A stretch of 62,463 nt of DNA, filler included, from Collodictyon triciliatum (lineage: Eukaryota), in NCBI GenBank assembly GCA_043381765.1. It is 5 parts of 5 records of this genome, joined end to end, with 100 filler letters (N's around TTAATTAATTAA, not from the genome) between each part and the next. Parts side by side here need not be neighbours in the genome. Positions count along the whole stretch, not along the records: positions 20,002 to 25,669 come from JBHJMP010000188.1; 4 more parts are not named here. One strand, 5' to 3'. Each line of letters opens with the position of its first letter. Position 1 is the first letter of the stretch. Made by a program: the position numbers and the translations under genes. This document shows positions 17,501-38,248 of the stretch, piece after piece. Below the pieces are notes generated by a model. It had not been told where the DNA came from. It searched no databases and saw only the letters and a list, made by a program, of their open reading frames with translations.

Positions 17501-19731
17501 ATATTTGCTTGGTTCATTATTGTGTTCTTTGTTTTTTCAGTTTTCCATCTAATTGTAAGTATTGATGTAATTGCTGTTTCGTGCATTTAGCTATTCTGAT
17601 GCTCGCACCCCCTCTGGCTGGCGTGGTGTATAGAACATTTCCATACGCCAGTCTTGTCAATGTGAACTCAGTTCTTCAAACGTGATTGTTTCTTCATCAT
17701 CATATTCTTGTTTTGTACATAGGAACCGTACATTTACATAGAAAGAGTGGCACCATATTTCTCTTGTGATGCATTTAGTCCTTAGATAGCTAAGGTTATT
17801 TATCGGCCTTAAGAAGTGCTTTTTTTTTTGAATTAAGGCACCTATTGTAATATTTTTAAAAATATCTATCGTCGTCTTTTTCTGAAAAAGGCCTGGCTAT
17901 ATCGCTGGCGTGAGTAACCCGATGTTTGAGGAAAAGATAAACTGGTGGGACGTATTGTGTGACTTACAAACAGGCAAAGTTACTATAAGCCCTTCCATCA
18001 AATTTACAACGCAATTCGACCTTGAGTATGGCACACATACAGAATATGACAAGAAAATTGCCGAGCAGGTTATAAATTATATATATATTTGGTATTGTTC
18101 TTACGCATGTCATATTCTATTTGCATCAGGATATTTCTTGGGAAAATTGTTAAATTTGTTCAGCATTTTTGTATCGCCCAACATCTCTTCTATCGGATTA
18201 ATTAACCTTTTGGAGGAGACATCATTTTCCCATCCTTTTTCATCAAAATGTGTATTTCCATTCAAATAGGTGCTGGCTGCGCTTTCTGCTGGATTCGGGG
18301 AAGAGCGTGTTCGATACATTTTGCAGGGATATGCTTCTCAAATATTGCACGCTGCATCTGGGACAGAGATATATGGAGATGCTGCGGAGATGCGTGCTTT
18401 TGAAGAGGCAAACAGAGCACGTTTTGTACCGCTTGTAGATACCGATGCTTACATCTATTATAGCCAGGTTCATTGGATGGCAGTATCTTCTATCCTTTAA
18501 TAAGATAATGAAATAGAGAGAAAATATATAAGATGACATCATGACAAGAAAAGAAAAGAAAAGAAAAGAAAAGAAAAGAAAAGAAAAGAAAAGAAAAGAA
18601 AAGAAAAGAAAAGAAAAGAAAAGAAAAGAAAAGAAAAGAAAAGAAAAGAANNNNNNNNNNNNNNNNNNNNNNNNNNNNNNNNNNNNNNNNNNNNNNNNNN
18701 NNNNNNNNNNNNNNNNNNNNNNNNAAGACAAAAGACAAAAGACAAAAGACAAAAGACAAAAGACAAAAGACAAAAGACAAAAGACAAAAGACAAAAGACA
18801 AAAGACAAAAGACAAAAGACAAAAGACAAAAGACAAAAATAAATAGTTAGCTTTTTATACTGAAAGGCACTTTTACGCCAAAGCGATTTCCAACAATTTA
18901 ATAACACAACCAGGTTCAAAAGAAGCGATTGCTTGTTTCTCCGTTGCAAGGATTTAACGTTGCTGAAAAGGCAAAGCTCCTTCGAATCCAAAAGACGATG
19001 CCGGAAGAAGAATTATTGGCTGTCTACGAAAGTATACACACTCGAGTGCAAACAAATGGACAAGTTGTGCAGGTATTCCTTTTAGACAGAGTAAATGGCT
19101 TTATGAACCGAGTGATAGTGTTTTTGTACAAATGGAGAACAATAGAAAAGCAAGGGGCGCTTGTATTCGTGTATTCCTAACCTTTTTTTATTTTTATTTT
19201 TTGGACATACATTCGTTATGATATGGTCATGAAAAAGGAAGTGATTATCCACCAGCGATTGGCGTTATCATCGGTACACATTTTCTCACAATTATCCAGC
19301 TTTTGGCAGAGTTTCCAGACATCGCCGGAGGTTTGAATCCGCTGGCGTTTGGGTTGCTTCATCGGAACGAGATGATTCGAAGGATGACTTTTGATTTGCT
19401 CCTGAGAATCAGTGACACGAAGGTTTCTTGACTCCATTTATCGCTTCTCTTGTGTGATATGCATTAACATATTTGGATAACAGAGATGTTCCGAATTCAT
19501 CTTGGGGTTGCGTTTCCCCCTTTTGTTTTTAAGCCATTCCCATAACGCGTGAAATGTTACTGTCGTGTTCTTTGTTTGGGTGAATTCTGACGTAGTTTTG
19601 CACTGTACTCATAAAAGATTGGGGAGAAGCTGATGAATAGCCTCAACTTCTATCTCCAGGCCGCTTATCAACGACAGTACACAAATCGGTCTAGGGAGCG
19701 CATTTCAGAAAGTCACCATGCAGACGAATAA
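14564..19731 (+). CDS. Afi1/MesA (SPA)-family DENN-like polarity/trafficking protein with embedded EVH1/WH1-like domain, complete multi-exon gene
   Basis: VEYVLLAEFDVDKGVTLRQQYP; LMLPDGAHNRDLD; VVKTMKDVTFRRGASMKSIAICSPYPFVHIFK; NAILLQKRVVFIG; RTFPYASL; PGYIAGVSNPMFEEKINWWDVLCDLQTGKV; GGLNPLAFGLLH; stop TAA 19729-19731. These motifs are characteristic of fungal MesA/Afi1 homologues. Confidence 0.88.
14718..15060. repeat. (AATAAATG)n intronic repeat spanning a gap
   Basis: Same unit on both sides of Ns 14820-14919. Confidence 0.95.
18546..18838. repeat. (AAAAG)n then (AAAGACA)n intronic repeats flanking a gap
   Basis: Directly visible. Confidence 0.95.
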
Positions 19732-19734
19732 AAG

Positions 19735-20135
<401 letters not shown>

Positions 20136-20599
20136 CAAAAAAAAGAAAAAGAGAAATAGAGGATGAGAAGATCATAGGATCAGAGAAAAATGAGAGGAAA
20201 AGAGGATAAATAGCCCGTATGCGGCGTTGCTGCACTCTGAAGCTGGCACGAAAGAGGTGTTTGTCCAAATTCTGCCGTTTGTGGAAACAAACCAGCGTTA
20301 CTGAGTCCAAATAATTTTGCTGTTTATTGTGCATTTGCTGTTGTGGCACTTTGTTGAACGCTCCTTGACATTTTATTCATAATTCGGTCTTGACCTTCTC
20401 ATTCATTCTCAAATATGTAGATTGTTCGCTTTATCAATTCAGTCTGTCGACCCTATTCGAGCTTTTATTCCTTTTTTTTATTATTATTTTTCCACAAAAA
20501 AACTAGCCGTAAAAAAGGTTTATTTTATCTGGCTTCGTGTGGTGGCTGCGCTGAGGTTTATTTGTGTAATCACGCGGGTTGCGATGATATTGTCGAGAT

Positions 20600-22141
20600 T
20601 TACTTCGCACCGAGTTGCTCCACGAAACGGCGATTGTACTCAGCAAGTTCGACTTCCTCTGGCCGAGTCGCATCCACTACTTCAGTGATTTGACGCTGCA
20701 ACTCTCCCGACCGTGCGAGAAGGTATGCAAGTCTCCTACGTCCTTGGATAAAGCTTACCAGTTGTTCCTCAAATAGGAGTGCATCCGGTGCCGGGAGTCC
20801 GTGCTTTGCTGCAGAAACCTGCAATTAAGAAATCGCATACATTAATGTGCTCTCACAAATATGTTTGCAGGGTTGGTAACTGTAAAAGTGTTGTGACACT
20901 TACTTTTGGATGGATAAGGAAAGGCGCCTTTGCCAAGGTGAATTCAAGAGACGCTTCAAGTTGTACTTGTCGTTCCACAGATACGACAATTATAGCCTGT
21001 AAAAAGATTGATTTATTGAAGATGGTACTTAATAGCTGGATATATATATGGTTTGCGGTTGATCGTTAGTGCTCGACACCTTTTTGTGGTTCTCAGCCAC
21101 AGAGAGTTGGTCATGAATTTTGGTTGAATTAGATGATGCCGCTGAAAGGACAAGGAGGAAGACGGTCGAACTGTGGAAAAAGTTATAGTTAATTCTTGAA
21201 TCGATTAAAAATAATGACAGAAGGAAAAAGAAGAAAAAGAAGAAAAAGAAGAAAAAGAAGAAAAAGAAGAAAAAGAAGAAAAAGAAGAAAAAGNNNNNNN
21301 NNNNNNNNNNNNNNNNNNNNNNNNNNNNNNNNNNNNNNNNNNNNNNNNNNNNNNNNNNNNNNNNNNNNNNNNNNNNNNNNNNNNNNNNNNNNNAAAGAAG
21401 AAGAAAAAGAAGAAGAAAAAGAAGAAGAAAAAGAAGAAGAAAAAGAAGAAGAAAAAGAAAAAGAAGAAAAAGAAGAAGAAAAAGAAGAAGAAAAAGAAGA
21501 AGAAAAAGAAGAAGAAAAAGAAGAAGAAAAAGAAGAAGAAAAAGAAGAAGAAAAAGAAAAAGAAAAGAAGAAGAAAAAGAAGAAGAAGAAAAGAAGAAAA
21601 TGTGACACATGCTTCTTATTGAGATTTGAAGGTTTAAATAACCAAAATGTACCGCAGGATATCGCCTGACCCGCCGGCAGTATGTGTGATAGATTTGCGA
21701 TCGAAAAGGGCCTTTAATTCGTTGGCAGTACCAGAGTCGCTTGTGATATGGCTTATGTAAACACCACATTCTCCTACGCCAAGAAAAAGATTTAAAAGAT
21801 CTTTTAAAAAAGGGATTATAAAATAAACATAAATAAAGCGATTGACAAAATGGATGATATCGGTTATATTTCGCTCCGTGGATATGGATTCTGGCCAGTA
21901 TGTACCTTCGAGTGCCTAAAATGAGACATATAGATTATTTAGGTGTTTGTATGGAGATATGTACCATGAGGGTACACCTACCGTACTTTCCACTGTCATT
22001 CTTCCTTCATCTTTCTTTTTGGATTTTGCAGCTAAGATACATAATTTGAGTATTTGATTTTGTTTAGCGCGAAAAATTCTGTTATCCATAAATAATTTAT
22101 TAGGGCTGTAAAAAGTCAACATTCCACTAATTATGATGTAA

Positions 22142-22238
<97 letters not shown>

Positions 22239-25200
22239 TTTTCTCTATCCGACCAGGTTAATAATATCTTACCCTGTAAAAACAAGGGTTTGATGCCGGA
22301 GGCTAGTTGAGCCAATCGCTCTTCGTATCGCTCTTCCTCAGAGAAATCCAAAACCTGATTTCGTAACACGAGAGATTCCAAATCGATGTTCATCTTTGCC
22401 TTGTTTTTCCATATAGATATGATCTAAATCCAAAATCAAAGAAAGTAAATCAAAATAATTTTCCCGTCCGAATGGCATTTACAGATTATGATTAATATTT
22501 AAGAAGATCCAGACAATGTCTAATCTAGAGAAGACTAAAATTCCGAAATTGAAGTACGCACACAATAAATAAATAAAATGAGCAAATGCAAAAAGCAAAA
22601 AGCAAAAAGCAAAAAGCAAAAAGCAAAAAGCAAAAAGCAAAAAGCAAAAAGCAAAAAGCAAAAAGCAAAAAGCAAAAAGCAAATAGCGAATAGCAGAGGA
22701 ATAAAGAAACGACGATTCATTAAGAAAGGCCTACAGGAATATCGTTTTCTTTCGCAAATTGCAATCGAGACATGCAGTAGGAACCCTCTTCGTCAGCCGA
22801 AGCATACGAAATGATGAAAATAACAGCGCGAGATATTTTATACTTTTCCTGCTCCTGCAATGAAAGGGCGCTCTCGACGACAGCAGGTTTTTTCACGTAG
22901 CTAAATAGGTCGCCATATCTCTTCGAATAAGAAATCTGATAGAAAAATATTTGATGTCTAGTACTTGGGGTTCTCACCTGGTGATAAAATAGTTGGATAG
23001 CCCTTTGGATAATTTTTGACTGTATTCCAAATCCTTGGGCGAAAAGATAATCTGTACATCGGCTAATTTCACCAAGTCTGGGCAACAAGTAATTATTTGG
23101 AGCAAATGAAAATTATGTTTTAAAAATCAAATACACCACATTATATGCCATTCTTTATCCAATTTATGACCATTTCGATAAGAATAAAACAAGCAATTTT
23201 TTATTTTAAAAAAGAAAGGCATATGAAGGACATTAAGCACTTTTCTTCGCACATAATTATCAATACCTTTTATAGGAAATGCATCTTCCAGCTTCAAATA
23301 GTCTAATGGGGACTTAAGAGTAGAGTCCTTTAGAAGAATATCGCCTTTTATTCAAGTCAATTTTTATATAAATATTGCGAGGATAATACCGAACCAGTGA
23401 TTTGTAGAGTGTCAAGAAAATTGAGAGGATAAGTTAATTTTGGGACATCACTTCAAGTACTGAATTTACAAAAAAAAGTATGAGCTGATTATAATTTCCT
23501 ATAAACAAATGATGGAATAAAATCCCATTATTTAATATGCTTTGTCATAAACCTTGATATTGGGTCAACAATCGCAAAATATCAGTTCGGTTGTGGATTG
23601 CAGCAATATGCAATGGGGTCTTCCCTGTCTTTTCAACCACGTTGGGATTTACTTTGGCGTCTAAAAGAATCTACTTGCATGATGATAAGCTTAGCACCGG
23701 GATCTCATCAGCCACAGAATCAAGAATTATTTACTTGAACACATGGTTTGTATCCTTGCTCAACAGCGATGTGGAGCGCTGTATTACAATTCAGGTCGAC
23801 ATGGTTGAGATGCAGTTGATGAGGTGTATTCACTAGCCTCCTATTCAGGAGAAACAATTATGATGTTGATTAACTTCGAGAGGCGAAACGATATTTGCTT
23901 AAATCGGATCATATAAAAATCTCTCTGTAGCATGGCAATATAGAGCGATATATATAGGGAAAAAGGAAAAAGGGAAAAAGGAAAAAAGGAAAAAAAAAGG
24001 AAAAAAAGGGGAAAAAAGGGGAAAAAAGGGGAAAAAAAGGGAAAAAAGGGGAAAAAAGGGGAAAAAAGGGAAAAAAGACGGCGGAATGTGAGTGAATAAT
24101 CATTGAGAGAGGCATATACACATGGCAGATACTCATACTTCAGACTCTCTACGTTTCCATTCATCGCTGCGATGTGTAAGGGTGTTTGCTGGTTACTATC
24201 TTTTGCCGATGGGAGCCACCCATGCTCCAGCAGAGAGGAGACGATTCTTGTAATTATTATTTGACATTAACAGAAATATCTATGAAATTGAACAAACCGT
24301 CCAGAATCCCTTTAAGAAAAATCGAAGCCAAGATTCAGTATCATGTCAATTCAAATCGAAATATAGAAGTACAAGTGATGGTTCAACCGGGCTGCATGAT
24401 GCAGGGGAGTGGCCATGTCCTGATCTACTGAACCTGTCACAAGATCCCTGAGCATTTTTGTCTGAGCACCGTAGGATTTGAGAACTTTTTCAACTTCTTT
24501 GTGGTCACCATCGATTGTGTATTGCATCAAAACTTTACTGGCTGATTCTATGGATAGTCAAATTATCATTTATGTGATTGCGAACGTATTGTTCAACTAG
24601 AGTCACATAGATTATTGAAACATTCTGAAATCTGATTTAAGGATAGTTTTAAAGTAATCAATTATTTAAGAAATGTGGTCGATGGGATTATAAGTAGGTG
24701 TTTTCATATAATATTTACCTATATATACCAGTGTGATATATTTTCCCACAGAAAGTTTGAGTGGGTCCTTAATAATCCCTAAAAGCGTCGGAGCAAAAAC
24801 ACTATTTGGGTCATTCTCCTCTATATTTTTATTTTAGTTAATAAGTTATGTTCGTAAAAAAAACCACTAGAAATTTATAATTAAACGAATAAGCACAAAA
24901 ACAGGAGATAATTTAAAACCATCGGTATCATCCTCGTCGCTATCATCTTCACTTTCATCAGTATCATCGCTCTCTCCTATATCTTTTGAAGAATAGCCCA
25001 GTTGCATATACTTATTCCATCCCCATAGATATAGATTCCTAGAGCCTATGATGCAATGGTTATATAAGGATAATAGACTTAATTGTCCATAATGATTCTG
25101 AGGTTATAAAGTATTATTAAGATATTTGAATTTACGAGTAATTGCTGCTGTGTGACTTCCACCCGCACGAATTTCAATGACAGGTTCAGGTATTGCCGAT

Positions 25201-25437
25201 ACGTGTCTTGGTGTGTACTGATCCTTCTTTGTCGTATAGCCCAATTGGCCATTTTCGTGCAGTCCGCAAGTAAAGACCTTGCCATCAGCTGGATAAGAGA
25301 AAAATATTATTATTTTTGTTGGCGATGACCCTTCCGGATCCATGGGGCGAGAGGTGATATGTAATAATGATATATTATTCACATACACATGAGGAAAACT
25401 GTGTGATTATCTCCACATGATACAAAAGTAACCGTCC
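20600..25437 (-). CDS. RCC1-repeat + ankyrin-repeat + two TIR-like domains protein (TirA-like), 5' partial
   Basis: RCC1: VSCGDNHTVFL, DGKVFTCGLHENGQLG...IRAGGSHTAAIT, GNLYLWGWNKYMQLG. ANK: ATPLHHAARLNH, QTPLHIAAMNGNVESLK, NTALHIAVEQGY, GKTPLHIAAIHNR. TIR-like 1 (23051-22273): IIFSPKDLEYSQKL...SRAVIFIISYASA...SYCMSRLQFAKENDIPIISI...LDFS. TIR-like 2 (21773-20740): VYISHITSDSGTANELK...STVFLLVLSAASSNSTKIHDQLSVAENHKKAIIVV. Stop at 20600. Confidence 0.78.
21225..21600. repeat. A/G-only intronic repeats (AAAAAGAAG / GAAGAAGAAAAA)
   Basis: Directly visible, spans a gap. Confidence 0.95.
22142..22237. repeat. (AAT)n intronic microsatellite
   Basis: Directly visible. Confidence 0.95.
22588..22683. 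repeat. (AAAAAGC)n intronic microsatellite
   Basis: Directly visible. Confidence 0.95.
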
Positions 25438-25669
25438 TATCTCGACAATTTTTTTTTATTATGAGAAGGGAAAAACGTATTTTAGTGATGTATATAAAAA
25501 TATTTATTGACAAGGAGCGATTATAATTTTTCTTTTTACTAAATTCATAATAAAAAGTAGGAAACTGACCAAAAAGAAAAAGAAAAAGAAAAAGAAAAAG
25601 AAAAAGAAAAAGAAAAAGAAAAAGAAAAAGAAAAAGAAAAAGAAAAAGAAAAAGGAAAAGAAAAAGAAA

Positions 25670-25769
25670 NNNNNNNNNNNNNNNNNNNNNNNNNNNNNNN
25701 NNNNNNNNNNNNNTTAATTAATTAANNNNNNNNNNNNNNNNNNNNNNNNNNNNNNNNNNNNNNNNNNNN
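25670..25769. other. Artificial scaffold linker
   Basis: TTAATTAATTAA at 25714-25725 inside Ns. Confidence 0.95.
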
Positions 25770-33397: not shown

Positions 33398-33497
33398 NNN
33401 NNNNNNNNNNNNNNNNNNNNNNNNNNNNNNNNNNNNNNNNNTTAATTAATTAANNNNNNNNNNNNNNNNNNNNNNNNNNNNNNNNNNNNNNNNNNNN
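33398..33497. other. Artificial scaffold linker
   Basis: TTAATTAATTAA at 33442-33453 inside Ns. Confidence 0.95.
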
Positions 33498-33499
33498 TA

Positions 33500-36400
33500 T
33501 TCATAAGCCGCCTGGAAAATGTTGATGAGAAGATTGGATTATATCACTCTCATCTTGTCGAACTCTTATCTTCCTGTTGTTTTGGTGTTTGTGCTTCCAG
33601 TAAGAATGCTTGTCTATCTAGGATACCGATCGACACCATGGTAAAAATTGTCTCCAATCAATCCATCTACATTAACATCAGGACAGTATATTTGAAATTT
33701 CTCTGTAGCTTGTTGTTTGCATATGAAGCTGTTCTTGATTTTGGAGAGGATGGCGAAAGTGATGACACCAGCGATCAAAATTTAGCCAATGAACCCAGCT
33801 CATTCAATAACACGCTGAATGGGCAAGGGGAGTCAACCAAGATTATAGAATTTCTAAAGACTAATCAGAGTGACGTTATGCAAATGATTCACTCTTTTAG
33901 TCATTTCTTGACACAAAAATCCGACTTTGAAAACCCAACAAATGTTTCTAATGCACAAACTTCGGCATTCAGCTTTCACTCAATTCCATTCAGTGTAAGA
34001 GGCTCTTCAAACATGACTGACGACGCCTGGATGAGTCGATTTCCCAGAAACCCTGTATCATCGTGGTCTGAAGAAAACGTTCGTTTTTTCATCGAGGTGG
34101 CTATATTCATACGTGTTTTGGGATTCTATTTGGATGATTCTGGTCTATCAGGAATGCGACAAGCGGCCATAGAGACTAGTAAACTGCTTACTTTAACCTT
34201 TTTATCTGCACCGGATGCTGAATCCGTAAGGGTTGTTCCTTTCTTTTTAAATAAGATTTTCCAGACCCTTTGGAGAGGAAAAAGGCCCGAAATTTGGCAA
34301 GATTTTGCAGATAGGCAAACTGGATTTCTGGGAAAGATTTCATCGCTTCTTAATTCAGGAAATCCTAACTCTATAGAAATGGCTCCTTCTCGAAAATCCT
34401 CCACTACCTCAACTGCCAATACTATCCCTAAAGAGTTGATTGAATGGAATTCCAAGATTAAAGAGGTACAAGACATGATTTGTGAAAGGATACTCTCTAT
34501 GAATTCTGAGTCAACAGGACTACTTAATATTCTTTCAGGCCAAAACAACGTCCCAAAAAAAAGAGACATCACTTGTGAAGATAGACTCCTTCTTGAAGAA
34601 GAAAACCCAGGCTACCATGAAGTCGAAAATCAGATCGAATTTAAAAGTATTTACTTTGGAGATGTAACCATGGAGCTGAAATCACGCTTGTTTGCTATCA
34701 TATCTAGCCTGAAAGATTTGAATGAGCCTGGTATTCTAGAATCGAACCAAGATTTCGCTTTTATCTTCAACATATGCCAGCATCTCCAAACGACACGAGA
34801 TATTGGTATCACCTGGAGTCCCTGGCTATTCCAAGTATTAACATATGTCCTTTACTGCTGCCCAACGGACGTGGAATCTGACTCTCTTATGGGGGAAAAG
34901 ACTAAAAGTCCACATCAGCTTGACGGATTCTGCTTGACAGGACTTTCGACCTTAACGCAGATGCAACTATTGTATGTCAAACTTCAAATACCTGAAACGA
35001 TCCTCAGTCGCTTGAAGTTTTGTCAGGCAGGATGTCCTCAGCGCTCATCAATATTCAGACTCGGCATTTATCTTCTCAAAGGAGGAAATAAAATGGTTCA
35101 GAGTAGTATCTCAGATAACATCAAACAAGACCCAAAGAATGCAGTCATAAGAAAAATTCGCAGTGGCTTTTTAGAGGCCATAGAACATCTTGGGGGTTAT
35201 AGGGCAATACAAAACAAGAACGGAAAAGGAGCGGTAACTACAAGAACCCTTGTGGGAACCAGAAGAGATGAAAAACAACAAGAGACCGTTCAATTCATTA
35301 CAATATCCCTGCGCTTTATTCAACTTCTATGTGAAGGCCACAATCATGACATGCAAAACCTCCTACGCAACCAGCCGAAAAATTCTGTTGACCTTATATC
35401 TGAAGTGGTTGGGTTCATATTGTTCTTTCAAGAAGATACATGGGGTAGATTGCCCAGAGGTGCACAGGGATTAGACATTAACGCATATACTACCTTTGAA
35501 ATGCTCTCCACTATTATTGATATGGAATTACTGACCCAAGGATATAGAACGATGACAGAGTTTATGCAAGGGCCTTGCCTAGAGAACCAGAAGGCCATAT
35601 TGGATGCCAAGGCATGTGATTTTCTTGAGAAATTCCTCCGATATTTCGACCTAAGTAAAACATTCGGTTGTGGGCAAATATTGACTCCTGTCGAATTTTC
35701 ATCTAAATTGCATCTCCCCCTTTTAATGGATGAGTGGAACCTTCAATTAAATCAGCTTCAAATGAGCATGTTGGAATTTTTGGTTGGATTGATGGAAGGT
35801 AATCACGAAAACGGAACGCGCATTATTGATGAGATATGTCATATCGTCTTGATTGATAACATGACCTTTCATTTTGAACGTCATCACGCTTTTCATAAGG
35901 AACAACACAATGTTTTCAACAAATCAAAGCTTACTTTTACAAAGCCTCAGTTAGAGTCCCTCAGCGTTCACTCTATCAGGGAAAGAATGTCCCCATCGGT
36001 TCTAGTGCATGTGAAGCATATTGACCTCAGTAAGCTCGAAAGTGTCGTCGAGGTCGATTTCCGATATCGCAAATTTGTATACGGTTTGTGGTCTCGAGTC
36101 CATATCATGATTGGTTGCGAATATTACAAAATTATGCGTCTGCTTTCGGAGTCATCAATAGGACAAAAGTTGGCGAGAGACTTGCATGCTTGGGAATCCA
36201 ACCACAAACACTATAATGTTCATGAGTACGTCGCTCGAATAGAAATGTTGAGAGAAAACAAATTGGAACTTGTCCTTTTTAATGTTCCGAAAACCATTCG
36301 TGATTACTGGAAGTCACCGGAAATTCAAAGTGCAAAGCATGATATCTACTATCAAGTTGACCGCACAAACCCTGAAGACAAACTGCGGGACTTTTTGAAA

Positions 36401-37207
36401 AGGTCAAATCAATTAAACTATATGTTTGATAATTTGAATAAAATAAAGAAACTCGATTATGTACCCATTATGAAGCCAATTTACTATGCAACAAAAGCAA
36501 GGTCAGCCTGGAGAACCCTTTCATTTGCAGTCACAGTAATTATCAACATTCTGCTTTTGTCCGGAACCCAAGTCGGAGACACTGGCGACCAATATAACAT
36601 CAAAGAACCTGAGAAACGAGCAATCGATGGACTTGGTCACCTGCAACTTATCTTGTCGATTTTGATGATATTGACCACTTTGATAATATTTGCGCCTGTG
36701 AAGTACAAACAAGCTGCTGAAGAGGTCAGGTCCAAGGGGAAAAAATATCCGCTGCAGTCAAAGTTCTCTGGTCTCTGGAGCATATTGAGCGACAACGAAA
36801 TTGCATTTTTGTTCATCTATGTCTTTTTCAGCTTCGTTGCAGTTGCTAAGTCTCCATTCTTCTTTTGTGTCCATTTGCTTGATATTTTTTTCAAGAATCG
36901 ACTCTTGAACTATGTCCTTCGCTCTGTTTTTCAAAATATCACACAGTTGGCTGCAACAATCCTCCTTGGGGTTATAGTTATATACATTTTCACGATGATT
37001 GGATACTCTTCATTTCATGGACAATACGAATTTGGAGACGGAGCGGTGAATTGCTCCAATCTTTGGACATGTTTTCTGGGTCATTTAGATTTGGGTTTGA
37101 GAGGACCTCCAACTTGGCTGTCTGATGATTTAAGCTTTGAGAATTATCTCTTTGATGTTTTGTATAACATTTTGATTATACTCATACTGGTTGCAATTAT
37201 TTCTGGT
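33500..37207 (+). CDS. Inositol 1,4,5-trisphosphate receptor-like Ca2+ release channel (IP3R/RyR superfamily), internal fragment in a single giant exon
   Basis: Open from the scaffold start: YHSHLVELLSSCC; LGIYLLKGGNKMVQ; RIH-associated domain LRFIQLLCEGHNHDMQNLLRNQ and TMTEFMQGPCLENQ; RIEMLRENKLELVLFNVP; DKLRDFL; six-TM ion-transport region with HLLDIF, LNYVLRSV, LGVIVIYIFTMIGY, CSNLWTCF, LVAIISG. GTAAGT donor at 37208; the terminal exon(s) are lost after the gap. Confidence 0.93.
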
Positions 37208-38248
37208 GTAAGTGGTATCAATCAGTTTTCCATTTTTTTCTCTTTTTTCTTTTTCTTTTTCNNNNNNNNNNNNNNNNNNNNNNNNNNNNNNNNNNNNNNN
37301 NNNNNNNNNNNNNNNNNNNNNNNNNNNNNNNNNNNNNNNNNNNTTTTTTCTTTTTTTTCTTTTTTTTCTTTTTTTCTTTTTTCCTTTATGCTCCGCCGTT
37401 TGGAAGTCTAATGTGCTTGATGCTTGGTAAATCTGTAAATTGACAGGCCGGCGTCTGGGAGGCTCCGTCCGACCCTGGTGTGGACATCGGTCGCTGGCAA
37501 CTAATATACAAAGGAGAAGTTAGATTCAAATATTGTATCACTATATTTCTTCCTCCAGCAAAACAATTAACATATAAACCACATTTACTTACTCAAGCAA
37601 CATCTCATCCCAACGAAGTCGCTGCATACAACTACATCTTACCTATCCATTCCTCATCCTTTTCTATCTGGGTTGATTGTTCTTTCTGCCTACTTCCCAT
37701 CGCACTTATCACTCGTTGACAAACCACAAATACCAGACTGCTGCTCTGCCGTCGTCTTCATCCCTCACATTCACCTTGGTGTGCGAAGGCAAGAAAATCA
37801 CACCAACTCCACACGGGAATACCCCTCGCAAGAAAGTAAACTGAGAGTGGATTATGGTCTTTGTTCTTTGCACACATTTGTGTTGGATACGCGTGTAGGA
37901 TTTTATGCTGCCACTTGCATACCCATCCAGTCGAGGTCATAGTCATGGTTTTGTAGATAAAAGCTGCCAGAAAGAATAAAACGTGCCGATTCCTGACACC
38001 ACCCTTAGAGTTTTCTTGTCTTCCTTCCTCTATCTTCTTTTTCATTTTTCATTTTTCATTTTTCATTTTTCATTTTTCATTTTTCATTTTTCATTTTTCA
38101 TTTTTCATTTTTCATTTTTCATTTTTCATTTTTTTTACCGTTGCGCCATGCTTTTCAATCACCTCTCAAGCATTCGGAAGGAGTAAGCAAGCAGAAAAAC
38201 AGAAATAGCTTATTCGAACAAGACTTGCGTGTCTCAGTTCTGCCAGAG

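What the first reader, a model, noticed from the sequence alone, without database searches (positions are those of the whole stretch)
20600..25437. RCC1-ankyrin-TIR-TIR protein: candidate protist innate-immune sensor/adaptor
Seen: splicing short exons that the ORF track misses gives RCC1 repeats, at least four ankyrin repeats and two tandem TIR-like folds. TIR1 exons are 23051-22978, 22900-22735 and 22423-22273; TIR2 exons are 21773-21653, 21170-21080, 20996-20904 and 20818-20600. Both show the TIR pattern: (V/I)xIS/FS..D...a..L, then S.xvhhhhS..s..S, then ..L..A.....I(I/V).h. Established: TIR domains signal in animal, plant and bacterial immunity. From memory, Dictyostelium TirA, needed for antibacterial defence, also couples TIR to RCC1-type repeats; this should be verified. 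Inference: a repeat-based sensor with a tandem-TIR output, i.e. a TirA-like cell-autonomous defence module in an unstudied lineage.
Basis: partly seen in the sequence, partly recalled or inferred. Interest (0 to 1): 0.78.

Follow-up and report, generated by a model that had tools for sequence, protein, structure and literature searches.

The report
RCC1-ankyrin protein with two TIR domains
A real but cut-off protist gene joins RCC1 and ankyrin repeats to two diverged TIR "immune-type" domains, the same layout recently described for Dictyostelium TirE, and both TIR domains seem to lack the residue needed for enzyme activity.

Summary
All 7 C-terminal exons have AG/GT borders, join in frame (304 aa) and end at a TAA. 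Eight further exons upstream continue the frame. Pfam confirms RCC1 (E 3.7e-13) and ankyrin repeats.

Single TIR exons give no Pfam hit. The spliced modules do match a TIR_2 profile I built from 67 bacterial domains: 15.1 and 16.5 bits, 24.8 together, reached by 0 of 2000 shuffles each. They score 0.2-1.3 bits against a receiver-domain control. hhalign and ESM-Atlas features agree. The fold could not be modelled and no RNA could be laid.

The conserved catalytic Glu column holds Arg in TIR1 and Gln in TIR2, so an adaptor role is likelier than an NADase role.

The gene is 5'-truncated. It sits on a 5.7-kb scaffold joined to the others by synthetic spacers, so only about 2.3 RCC1 repeats are seen and the window neighbours mean nothing.

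The recalled precedent is wrong in name. A 2026 preprint describes TirE, not TirA, as RCC1 repeats plus two diverged tandem TIRs. Orthology to TirE and any immune role remain untested. The lineage is probably near Diphylleia.

The parts
25387..25436 (-). First visible exon: end of an RCC1 blade. It needs 2 bases from an upstream exon that is not on this scaffold.
   Evidence: tag|G acceptor and GTATGT donor read. Pfam RCC1_2 E 0.00069 and RCC1 E 0.0038 on 25382-25453.
25136..25288 (-). Exon with one complete RCC1 repeat.
   Evidence: Pfam RCC1 50.3 bits, E 3.7e-13, profile positions 1-50 of 50. Chosen by the exon-chaining script.
24920..25045 (-). Exon with the start of a further RCC1 repeat, followed by an acidic Asp/Glu/Ser-rich linker. 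The donor may instead be 24903 or 24897.
   Evidence: Pfam RCC1 E 0.0012. Own RCC1 profile E 0.0068. Donor alternatives.
24719..24818 (-). Optional extra exon (acceptor 24818, 24815 or 24767) that would complete the third RCC1 blade. Unresolved.
   Evidence: All 6 tested combinations stay open and in frame. No Pfam hit on this block. Not chosen by the chaining script.
24373..24547 (-). Exon with ankyrin repeat 1 (weak).
   Evidence: Ank_2 E 0.017 on 24354-24557. In the chain.
24139..24246 (-). Exon with ankyrin repeat 2.
   Evidence: Ank_4 36.1 bits, E 7.3e-9.
23735..23840 (-). Exon with ankyrin repeat 3.
   Evidence: Ank_4 24.4 bits, E 3.6e-5.
23553..23670 (-). Exon with ankyrin repeat 4.
   Evidence: Ank_4 30.2 bits; Ank 28.6 bits, E 1.6e-6.
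23253..23344 (-). Linker exon, possibly a capping ankyrin repeat. Weak acceptor, and the least certain exon of the model.
   Evidence: Needed to keep the frame between 23553 and 23051. No Pfam hit on 23130-23351.
22273..23051 (-). TIR module 1, in three exons: 23051-22978, 22900-22735, 22423-22273.
20600..21773 (-). TIR module 2 plus a helical C-terminal tail, in four exons: 21773-21653, 21170-21080, 20996-20904, 20818-20600. TAA stop at 20602-20600.
   Evidence: Borders and frame. TIR_2 profile 16.5 bits, E 4.7e-7, reached by 0 of 2000 shuffles. hhalign P 0.0015-0.0027. ESM-Atlas: 23 of 30 hits in the TIR_2 set, 0.92, 172 shared features.
21294..21393 (.). 100-N assembly gap inside the intron between the first two TIR2 exons. 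A small exon could be missing here.
   Evidence: TIR2 is about 13 residues shorter than the profile between profile positions 23 and 47.
25670..25769 (.). Synthetic spacer (44 N + TTAATTAATTAA + 44 N) that ends the scaffold and cuts off the 5' part of the gene.
   Evidence: Four identical spacers in the window.

Best explanation
This is the 3' two-thirds or more of one intron-rich protist gene. It has at least 15 exons and at least 613 codons, and is cut at the scaffold end. It encodes a soluble protein with no signal or membrane segment in the visible part.

Domain order, N to C:
- the last ~2.3 repeats of an RCC1 beta-propeller;
- an acidic linker;
- four to five ankyrin repeats;
- two highly diverged TIR_2-type domains in tandem;
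- a ~45-residue helical tail.

This is the layout described for Dictyostelium TirE.

Likely working (inferred): the propeller and the ankyrin stack are protein- or ligand-binding surfaces. The two TIR domains both lack the catalytic glutamate (Arg in TIR1, Gln in TIR2). They would therefore act as a non-enzymatic TIR-TIR interaction or oligomerisation platform, like animal adaptor TIRs (MyD88, TIRAP, BCAP), and not as NAD-cleaving signal generators.

A role in cell-autonomous defence is possible but rests only on what TIR domains do elsewhere.
For: Shown:
- Exon borders, frame and stop.
- Independent recovery by a codon-usage chaining script.
- 14 of 14 exons richer in G+C than the preceding intron.
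- RCC1 and ankyrin Pfam hits over cut-off.
- The two spliced modules score 15.1 and 16.5 bits (24.8 together) against a TIR_2 profile built from 67 bacterial TIR_2 domains. 0 of 2000 shuffles of each reach the real score; best shuffles 8.5, 9.8 and 9.4 bits. Reversed sequences score 1.9-2.6 bits. 78 tiles of other open frames in the window score at most 4.7 bits.
- Two separate sub-profiles still hit both modules: cyanobacterial (30 sequences) and Bacteroidota (32 sequences), 10.3-16.0 bits.
- Against a receiver-domain profile of another alpha/beta fold the modules score 0.2-1.3 bits. Cross-family noise between the two profiles is at most 6.5 bits.
- hhalign: TIR1 P 6e-6 to 9.5e-5, TIR2 P 0.0015-0.0027, against 0.08-0.21 for the control.
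- ESM-Atlas features of one exon from each module point to TIR_2 clusters.
- The Glu column is Glu in 61 and Gln in 6 of 67 bacterial domains. It is Arg in TIR1 and Gln in TIR2.

Precedent: the TirE description in PMC13142454 (passages read).
Against: - No transcript evidence.
- Pfam's own TIR models gave no hit on any of the 7 single-exon pieces, and the whole spliced domain could not be given to Pfam or to a structure predictor.
- TIR2's hhalign probability is low (11-17%).
- TIR2 is ~13 residues short in the betaB-alphaB region and spans an assembly gap.
- TIR1 and TIR2 are not significantly alike in a direct comparison.
- No homologue was found in any sequence search, so nothing is known about conservation.
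- The alignment register around the Glu column is model-dependent: TIR1 has a 2-residue insertion just before it, and TIR2 has an Asp one position earlier.
- The RCC1 exons could belong to a separate upstream gene.
Confidence: 0.6

Rival explanations
1. There are two adjacent genes. An RCC1-propeller gene ends at the stop at 24870. A separate ankyrin-TIR-TIR gene starts at an in-frame ATG inside 24557-24354.
For: The open frame of the third RCC1 exon runs on to a stop at 24870. The first ankyrin block contains an in-frame Met. The gap of about 330 nt is not impossible as an intergenic distance in a compact genome. No RNA evidence joins them.
Against: GT donors at 24920, 24903 and 24897 and the acceptor at 24547 give an in-frame join with an intron of ordinary size for this gene: 372 nt, within the range 64-499. 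The acidic stretch looks like an interdomain linker. TirE joins RCC1 repeats and tandem TIRs in one protein.
Confidence: 0.2
2. The TIR domains are active NAD-consuming enzymes that use a non-canonical catalytic residue, for example the Asp just before the Gln in TIR2. The protein would then be a true sensor with an enzymatic output.
For: TIR2 has Asp one position before the Glu column. The alignment register of such diverged domains is uncertain. Many TIRs once thought to be adaptors proved catalytic; I saw only the abstract of the preprint 10.64898/2026.04.20.719644, in the listing.
Against: The column is Arg in TIR1 and Gln in TIR2. TIR1 has no acidic residue within two positions of it.
Confidence: 0.12
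3. The C-terminal modules are not TIR domains. They are some other small alpha/beta domain, or chance frames.
For: No Pfam TIR hit on single exons. No PDB hit for the 55-residue exon. TIR2's hhalign probability is only 11-17%. No structure model was made.
Against: Profile scores lie far above 2000 shuffles, reversed sequences, 78 other open-frame tiles and a receiver-domain control. Both modules align in register with the betaA, betaC-alphaC and betaD motifs of the profile. Independent protein-language-model features of two different exons give TIR_2.
Confidence: 0.08

Closest known systems
Dictyostelium discoideum TirE (DDB_G0278125), as described in bioRxiv 2026, PMC13142454 (passages read)
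   Same: Multiple RCC1 repeats plus two diverged TIR domains in tandem that standard Pfam HMMs miss. Cytosolic protist protein of unknown function.
   Different: Ankyrin repeats are not mentioned for TirE in the passages I read. The lineage differs: Amoebozoa there, probably a Diphylleia-like (CRuMs) protist here. Sequence kinship was not tested, because the TirE sequence could not be fetched with the searches available. The TirE clade and its relatives may be listed in supplements I could not see.
Dictyostelium TirA
   Same: Soluble TIR-domain protein of a phagocytic protist, linked to antibacterial defence (PMC5758549, passages).
   Different: Nothing I read couples TirA to RCC1 repeats or to a second TIR domain. 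The review holds 0 occurrences of 'RCC1'.
Animal adaptor TIR proteins BCAP/PIK3AP1 and BANK1 (a TIR_3 domain with ankyrin repeats; the architecture is recalled, and the TIR_3 assignment is in PMC13142454 section 5)
   Same: A non-enzymatic TIR combined with ankyrin repeats in a cytosolic scaffold.
   Different: They have a single N-terminal TIR of another Pfam subtype, no RCC1 propeller, and a different domain order.
Bacterial TIR proteins with RCC1-like propellers in gut Clostridia
   Same: A TIR domain fused to an RCC1-type propeller as the presumed sensor.
   Different: According to those notes they are prokaryotic, with a single catalytically intact TIR at the N-terminus and zinc ribbons. 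I did not test them here.
SARM1 (ARM-SAM-SAM-TIR; recalled)
   Same: A repeat domain that regulates a C-terminal TIR in a cytosolic protein.
   Different: SARM1 has one catalytic TIR with the glutamate, SAM-domain octamerisation, and no RCC1 or ankyrin repeats.

Membership tests
TIR / STIR clan (TIR_2-type) | Significant match to a TIR family profile over most of the domain | tested here: met
   Against a home-built TIR_2 profile (67 bacterial domains picked by Pfam PF13676), TIR1 scores 15.1 bits and TIR2 16.5 bits, with 0 of 2000 shuffles as high. The control fold gives 0.2-1.3 bits. hhalign P is 6e-6 to 9.5e-5 for TIR1 and 0.0015-0.0027 for TIR2. Pfam's own model on the 7 single-exon pieces gave 0 TIR hits. 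The whole spliced domain could not be given to Pfam.
TIR / STIR clan (TIR_2-type) | Flavodoxin-like five-stranded alpha/beta fold | not testable with these tools
Catalytic (NADase) TIR subclass | Conserved glutamate in helix alphaC | tested here: not met
   The column is Glu in 61 and Gln in 6 of 67 bacterial domains. It is Arg in TIR1 and Gln in TIR2.
TirE-like proteins (RCC1 + tandem diverged TIR) | RCC1 repeats N-terminal to two tandem TIR domains in one protein | tested here: met
   Frame-consistent exon chain from 25436 to 20600. A single transcript is not shown.
TirE-like proteins (RCC1 + tandem diverged TIR) | Sequence homology to DDB_G0278125 beyond shared domain types | not tested
   The TirE sequence was not obtainable. 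Searches with the TIR1 exon and the RCC1 exon returned no eukaryotic relative.
RCC1 beta-propeller | RCC1 repeat match over the Pfam cut-off | tested here: met
   PF00415 scores 50.3 bits against a cut-off of 21.7.
RCC1 beta-propeller | Seven blades forming a closed propeller | tested here: inconclusive
   Only about 2.3 repeats are visible. No further RCC1 match lies upstream of 25453 in the window, and the scaffold ends at 25669.
Ankyrin repeat proteins | Several consecutive ANK repeats over the Pfam cut-off | tested here: met
   Three exons score over the Ank_4 cut-off and a fourth is weak.
   The review passages and the preprint assign the RCC1 repeats to TirE, not TirA.

The most novel reading that the evidence does not exclude
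RCC1-(ankyrin)-tandem-pseudo-TIR proteins could be an ancient eukaryotic family. It would be shared by Amoebozoa (TirE) and a Diphylleia-like CRuMs protist and so would predate the split of these supergroups. In it a pair of catalytically dead TIR domains would form a built-in heterodimer that nucleates signalling assemblies once the propeller and ankyrin sensors engage a microbial or cellular ligand. That would be an adaptor-type TIR pathway outside animals.
Probability: 0.2. Interest if true: 0.6.

Novelty: new member of a known kind. Interest (0 to 1): 0.4.

Why it matters
TIR domains are a shared currency of immunity in bacteria, plants and animals, but their roles in free-living protists are almost unknown.

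This gene shows that the RCC1-plus-tandem-TIR layout just described in Dictyostelium (TirE) also occurs, with ankyrin repeats added, in what seems to be a very distant and barely studied lineage. It also suggests that both TIRs have lost the catalytic glutamate.

If the two proteins prove to be orthologues, the family would be old. It would offer a tractable case of non-enzymatic TIR signalling outside animals.

As it stands this is a well-supported annotation of a truncated gene, not a new kind of system.

Tried and rejected
- **RNA evidence.** No RNA holder was listed. Nothing was laid, so expression and splice junctions remain untested.
- **Whole genome.** None is held for this window.
- **Homologue searches that found nothing useful.**
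  - TIR1 exon against 5.8 billion clusters, longer proteins: 9 candidates, none at E<=1.
  - Same exon by exhaustive phmmer against 1.84 billion representatives: 0 hits at E<=0.001.
  - Same exon against PDB sequences: 0 hits at E<=10.
  - RCC1 exon: 3 hits among 15 candidates. All read as generic RCC1-repeat proteins and none resembles TIR.
  - Metagenome scan: 1 locus (L001) among 436 pattern matches. It is a bacterial-looking contig that matches only through a chance 9-residue identity, so I rejected it.
- **Earlier findings of this scan.** None on this genome, and none by sequence.
- **Rfam on the scaffold.** 0 matches.
- **Upstream RCC1 exons.** Regex and profile scans of all six frames found none between 25453 and 33400. 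The five 5' exons proposed by my chaining script (27241-26355) lie beyond a synthetic spacer, so I discard them.
The script's variants (acceptor 21915 plus an extra exon 22031-21982; donor 21101) add or remove residues that do not fit the TIR profile.
Full report
**What the DNA is**

The window is AT-rich (27-43% G+C) eukaryotic DNA. It is full of microsatellites and short spliceosomal introns.

It is not one continuous piece. Four identical 100-nt spacers, each 44 N + TTAATTAATTAA + 44 N, lie at 13102-13201, 19902-20001, 25670-25769 and 33398-33497. The 12-mer puts a stop in all six frames, and from recall this is a device for joining separate contigs. I therefore read the window as at least five scaffolds strung together.

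The finding lies on a 5,668-nt scaffold (20002-25669) with one internal 100-N gap. Genes elsewhere in the window are not necessarily its neighbours, so I draw nothing from context.

**The exons**

Six have a GT behind and the last ends at TAA. Joined, they give 915 nt in one frame, 304 codons.
- I wrote an exon-chaining script that knows only GT/AG, open frames and the codon usage of an unrelated 3.7-kb ORF of the window. It recovered 4 of the 7 exons exactly and one border of each of the other 3. It also linked them in frame to seven exons further up: 25288-25136, 25045-24920, 24547-24373, 24246-24139, 23840-23735, 23670-23553 and 23344-23253.
- Reading the sequence showed one more exon, 25436-25387. 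It has a tag|G acceptor and a GTATGT donor, and it joins 25288 across a split Ser codon to give a textbook RCC1 blade junction.
- The resulting 15-exon model is open for 613 codons.
- 14 of 14 exons that have a preceding intron are richer in G+C than that intron (0.34-0.53 against 0.24-0.41). Introns measure 64-499 nt.
- The first exon needs two bases from an exon that is not on the scaffold, so the gene is 5'-truncated by the assembly.
- An optional exon at 24818/24815/24767-24719 would complete the third RCC1 blade. All 6 tested variants stay in frame and I cannot choose between them.
- Exon 23344-23253 has a poor acceptor and is the weakest link of the model.

**RCC1 and ankyrin**

Pfam results:

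| Region (minus strand) | Family | Result |
|---|---|---|
| 25107-25406 | RCC1 | 50.3 bits, E 3.7e-13, full repeat |
| 24870-25103 | RCC1 | partial, E 0.0012 |
| 25382-25453 | RCC1 / RCC1_2 | partial, E 0.0038 / 0.00069 |
| three exons | Ank_4 | 36.1, 24.4 and 30.2 bits (cut-off 22.7) |
| 24354-24557 | Ank_2 | weak, E 0.017 |

A regex scan and a home-built RCC1 profile over all six frames found no further RCC1 exon upstream of 25453. That fits the scaffold end.

**The TIR question**

*What failed.* None of the 7 single-exon pieces hit a TIR model in Pfam at E<=10. The 55-residue TIR1 exon hit nothing in PDB sequences. It also hit nothing in two very large protein searches.

I collected 67 bacterial TIR_2 domains, picked by Pfam PF13676 in cyanobacterial, Bacteroidota and three other genomes, and built a profile from them.

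*HMMER scores.* E-values are for a search space of one sequence.

| Query | Bits | E-value | Best of 2000 shuffles | Shuffles reaching the real score |
|---|---|---|---|---|
| Spliced C-terminus | 24.8 | 1.2e-9 | 9.4 | 0 of 2000 |
| TIR1 alone | 15.1 | 1.2e-6 | 8.5 | 0 of 2000 |
| TIR2 alone | 16.5 | 4.7e-7 | 9.8 | 0 of 2000 |

*Controls.*
- Reversed sequences score 1.9-2.6 bits.
- 78 tiles of other long open frames of the window score at most 4.7 bits.
- Profiles built from the cyanobacterial (30) or the Bacteroidota (32) sequences alone still hit both modules, at 10.3-16.0 bits.
- A profile of 30 receiver domains, another small alpha/beta fold, gives the modules 0.2-1.3 bits. Cross-family noise between the two profiles is at most 6.5 bits.

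*Other lines.*
- hhalign gives TIR1 P 6e-6 to 9.5e-5 over 110-112 columns (probability 59-85%). It gives TIR2 P 0.0015-0.0027 (probability 11-17%). The receiver control gives P 0.08-0.21.
- ESM-Atlas features of one exon per module point to TIR_2 clusters. The TIR1 exon scores 0.91 with 133 shared features, which is a weak lead. For the TIR2 exon, 23 of 30 hits fall in the TIR_2 set, at 0.92 with 172 shared features.

*Conclusion.* Both modules are diverged TIR_2-type domains at the level of sequence profiles. TIR1 is better supported than TIR2.

*Caveats on TIR2.* It is about 13 residues short between the betaB strand and helix alphaB, and the intron there holds the 100-N gap, so a small exon may be missing. 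The two modules are not significantly alike in a direct comparison, so they are not a recent duplication.

**Catalytic residue**

In the alignment to the profile, one column is Glu in 61 and Gln in 6 of the 67 bacterial domains. From established knowledge this is the NADase glutamate of helix alphaC. It is Arg in TIR1 and Gln in TIR2. TIR1 has no acidic residue within two positions, and TIR2 has an Asp one position before.

I therefore infer that the tandem TIR works as an interaction platform and not as an NAD-cleaving enzyme. The register of such diverged sequences is uncertain, so this is an inference, not a demonstration.

**What is known**

- A review calls TirA a soluble TIR-domain protein and never mentions RCC1 (PMC5758549, passages).
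- A 2026 preprint (PMC13142454; passages and section 5 read) lists five Dictyostelium TIR proteins. [quoted passage not shown] That is the layout found here, down to Pfam's blindness.
- TirE has no reported function in the passages I read.
- Full-text searches for RCC1 + ankyrin + 'TIR domain' (1 paper, on coral and dinoflagellate genomes, listing only) and for RCC1 + 'TIR domains' + tandem (3 papers, of which 2 were listed and only the preprint looks relevant by title) gave no other precedent.
- I could not fetch the TirE sequence, so orthology is untested. The preprint's supplementary tables, which may list TirE's clade and relatives, were not available to me.
- Earlier notes of this scan describe bacterial TIR proteins fused to RCC1-like propellers. 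I did not check them.

**Whose gene**

A RyR/IP3R-like channel ORF lies on another scaffold of the window (33500-37258, with RIH_assoc and Ion_trans domains). It is 57% identical over 98% of a 601-residue region to a EukProt protein of Diphylleia rotans. The next best hit covers only 20% of the region.

If all scaffolds come from one genome, the organism is a protist nearest to the collodictyonids (CRuMs) among sequenced taxa.

**Verdict**

- The architecture is real but incomplete.
- The TIR call is supported by sequence profiles, not by structure.
- The 'TirA-like' label should read 'TirE-like'.
- The defence role is a guess.
- The missing glutamates point to an adaptor, not an enzymatic output.
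- I file this as a new member of a recently described kind.

Noticed in passing
window 13102-13201, 19902-20001, 25670-25769, 33398-33497: Four identical 100-nt spacers (44 N + TTAATTAATTAA + 44 N). The window appears to be at least five separate scaffolds joined artificially, so adjacency across these points cannot be trusted.
   Followed up: yes
window 7745-9016, minus strand: A second gene with RCC1 repeats on another scaffold (Pfam RCC1 E 1.1e-10 and 2.8e-9; a weak further repeat at 8306-8404). No TIR-like exon was detected near it. Whether it relates to the truncated gene is unknown.
   Followed up: partly
window 33500-37258, plus strand: A single 3.7-kb open frame for the C-terminal half of a RyR/IP3R-like calcium channel (RIH_assoc E 3.2e-22; Ion_trans E 3.1e-5, just under its cut-off). 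It is cut at both ends by N runs. It is 57% identical to a Diphylleia rotans EukProt protein, which gives the only clue to the lineage.
   Followed up: partly
window 17886-18269, plus strand: An exon with a SPA (stabilization of polarity axis / AVL9-type) domain, Pfam E 1.7e-12.
   Followed up: no
window 21294-21393: A 100-N gap flanked by long poly-T and (CTT)n tracts lies inside a TIR2 intron. TIR2 is about 13 residues shorter than the TIR_2 profile just there, so an exon might be missing.
   Followed up: partly
whole window, e.g. 9731-10643, 21205-21615, 25507-25669: Microsatellites and homopolymer tracts are unusually dense. Scaffold ends tend to fall in them, which probably explains the fragmented assembly.
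   Followed up: no
L001 1639-1779: The only metagenome 'relative' of the TIR1 exon is a bacterial-looking contig. Its long open frame shares a 9-residue identity with the exon by chance and is not a homologue.
   Followed up: yes
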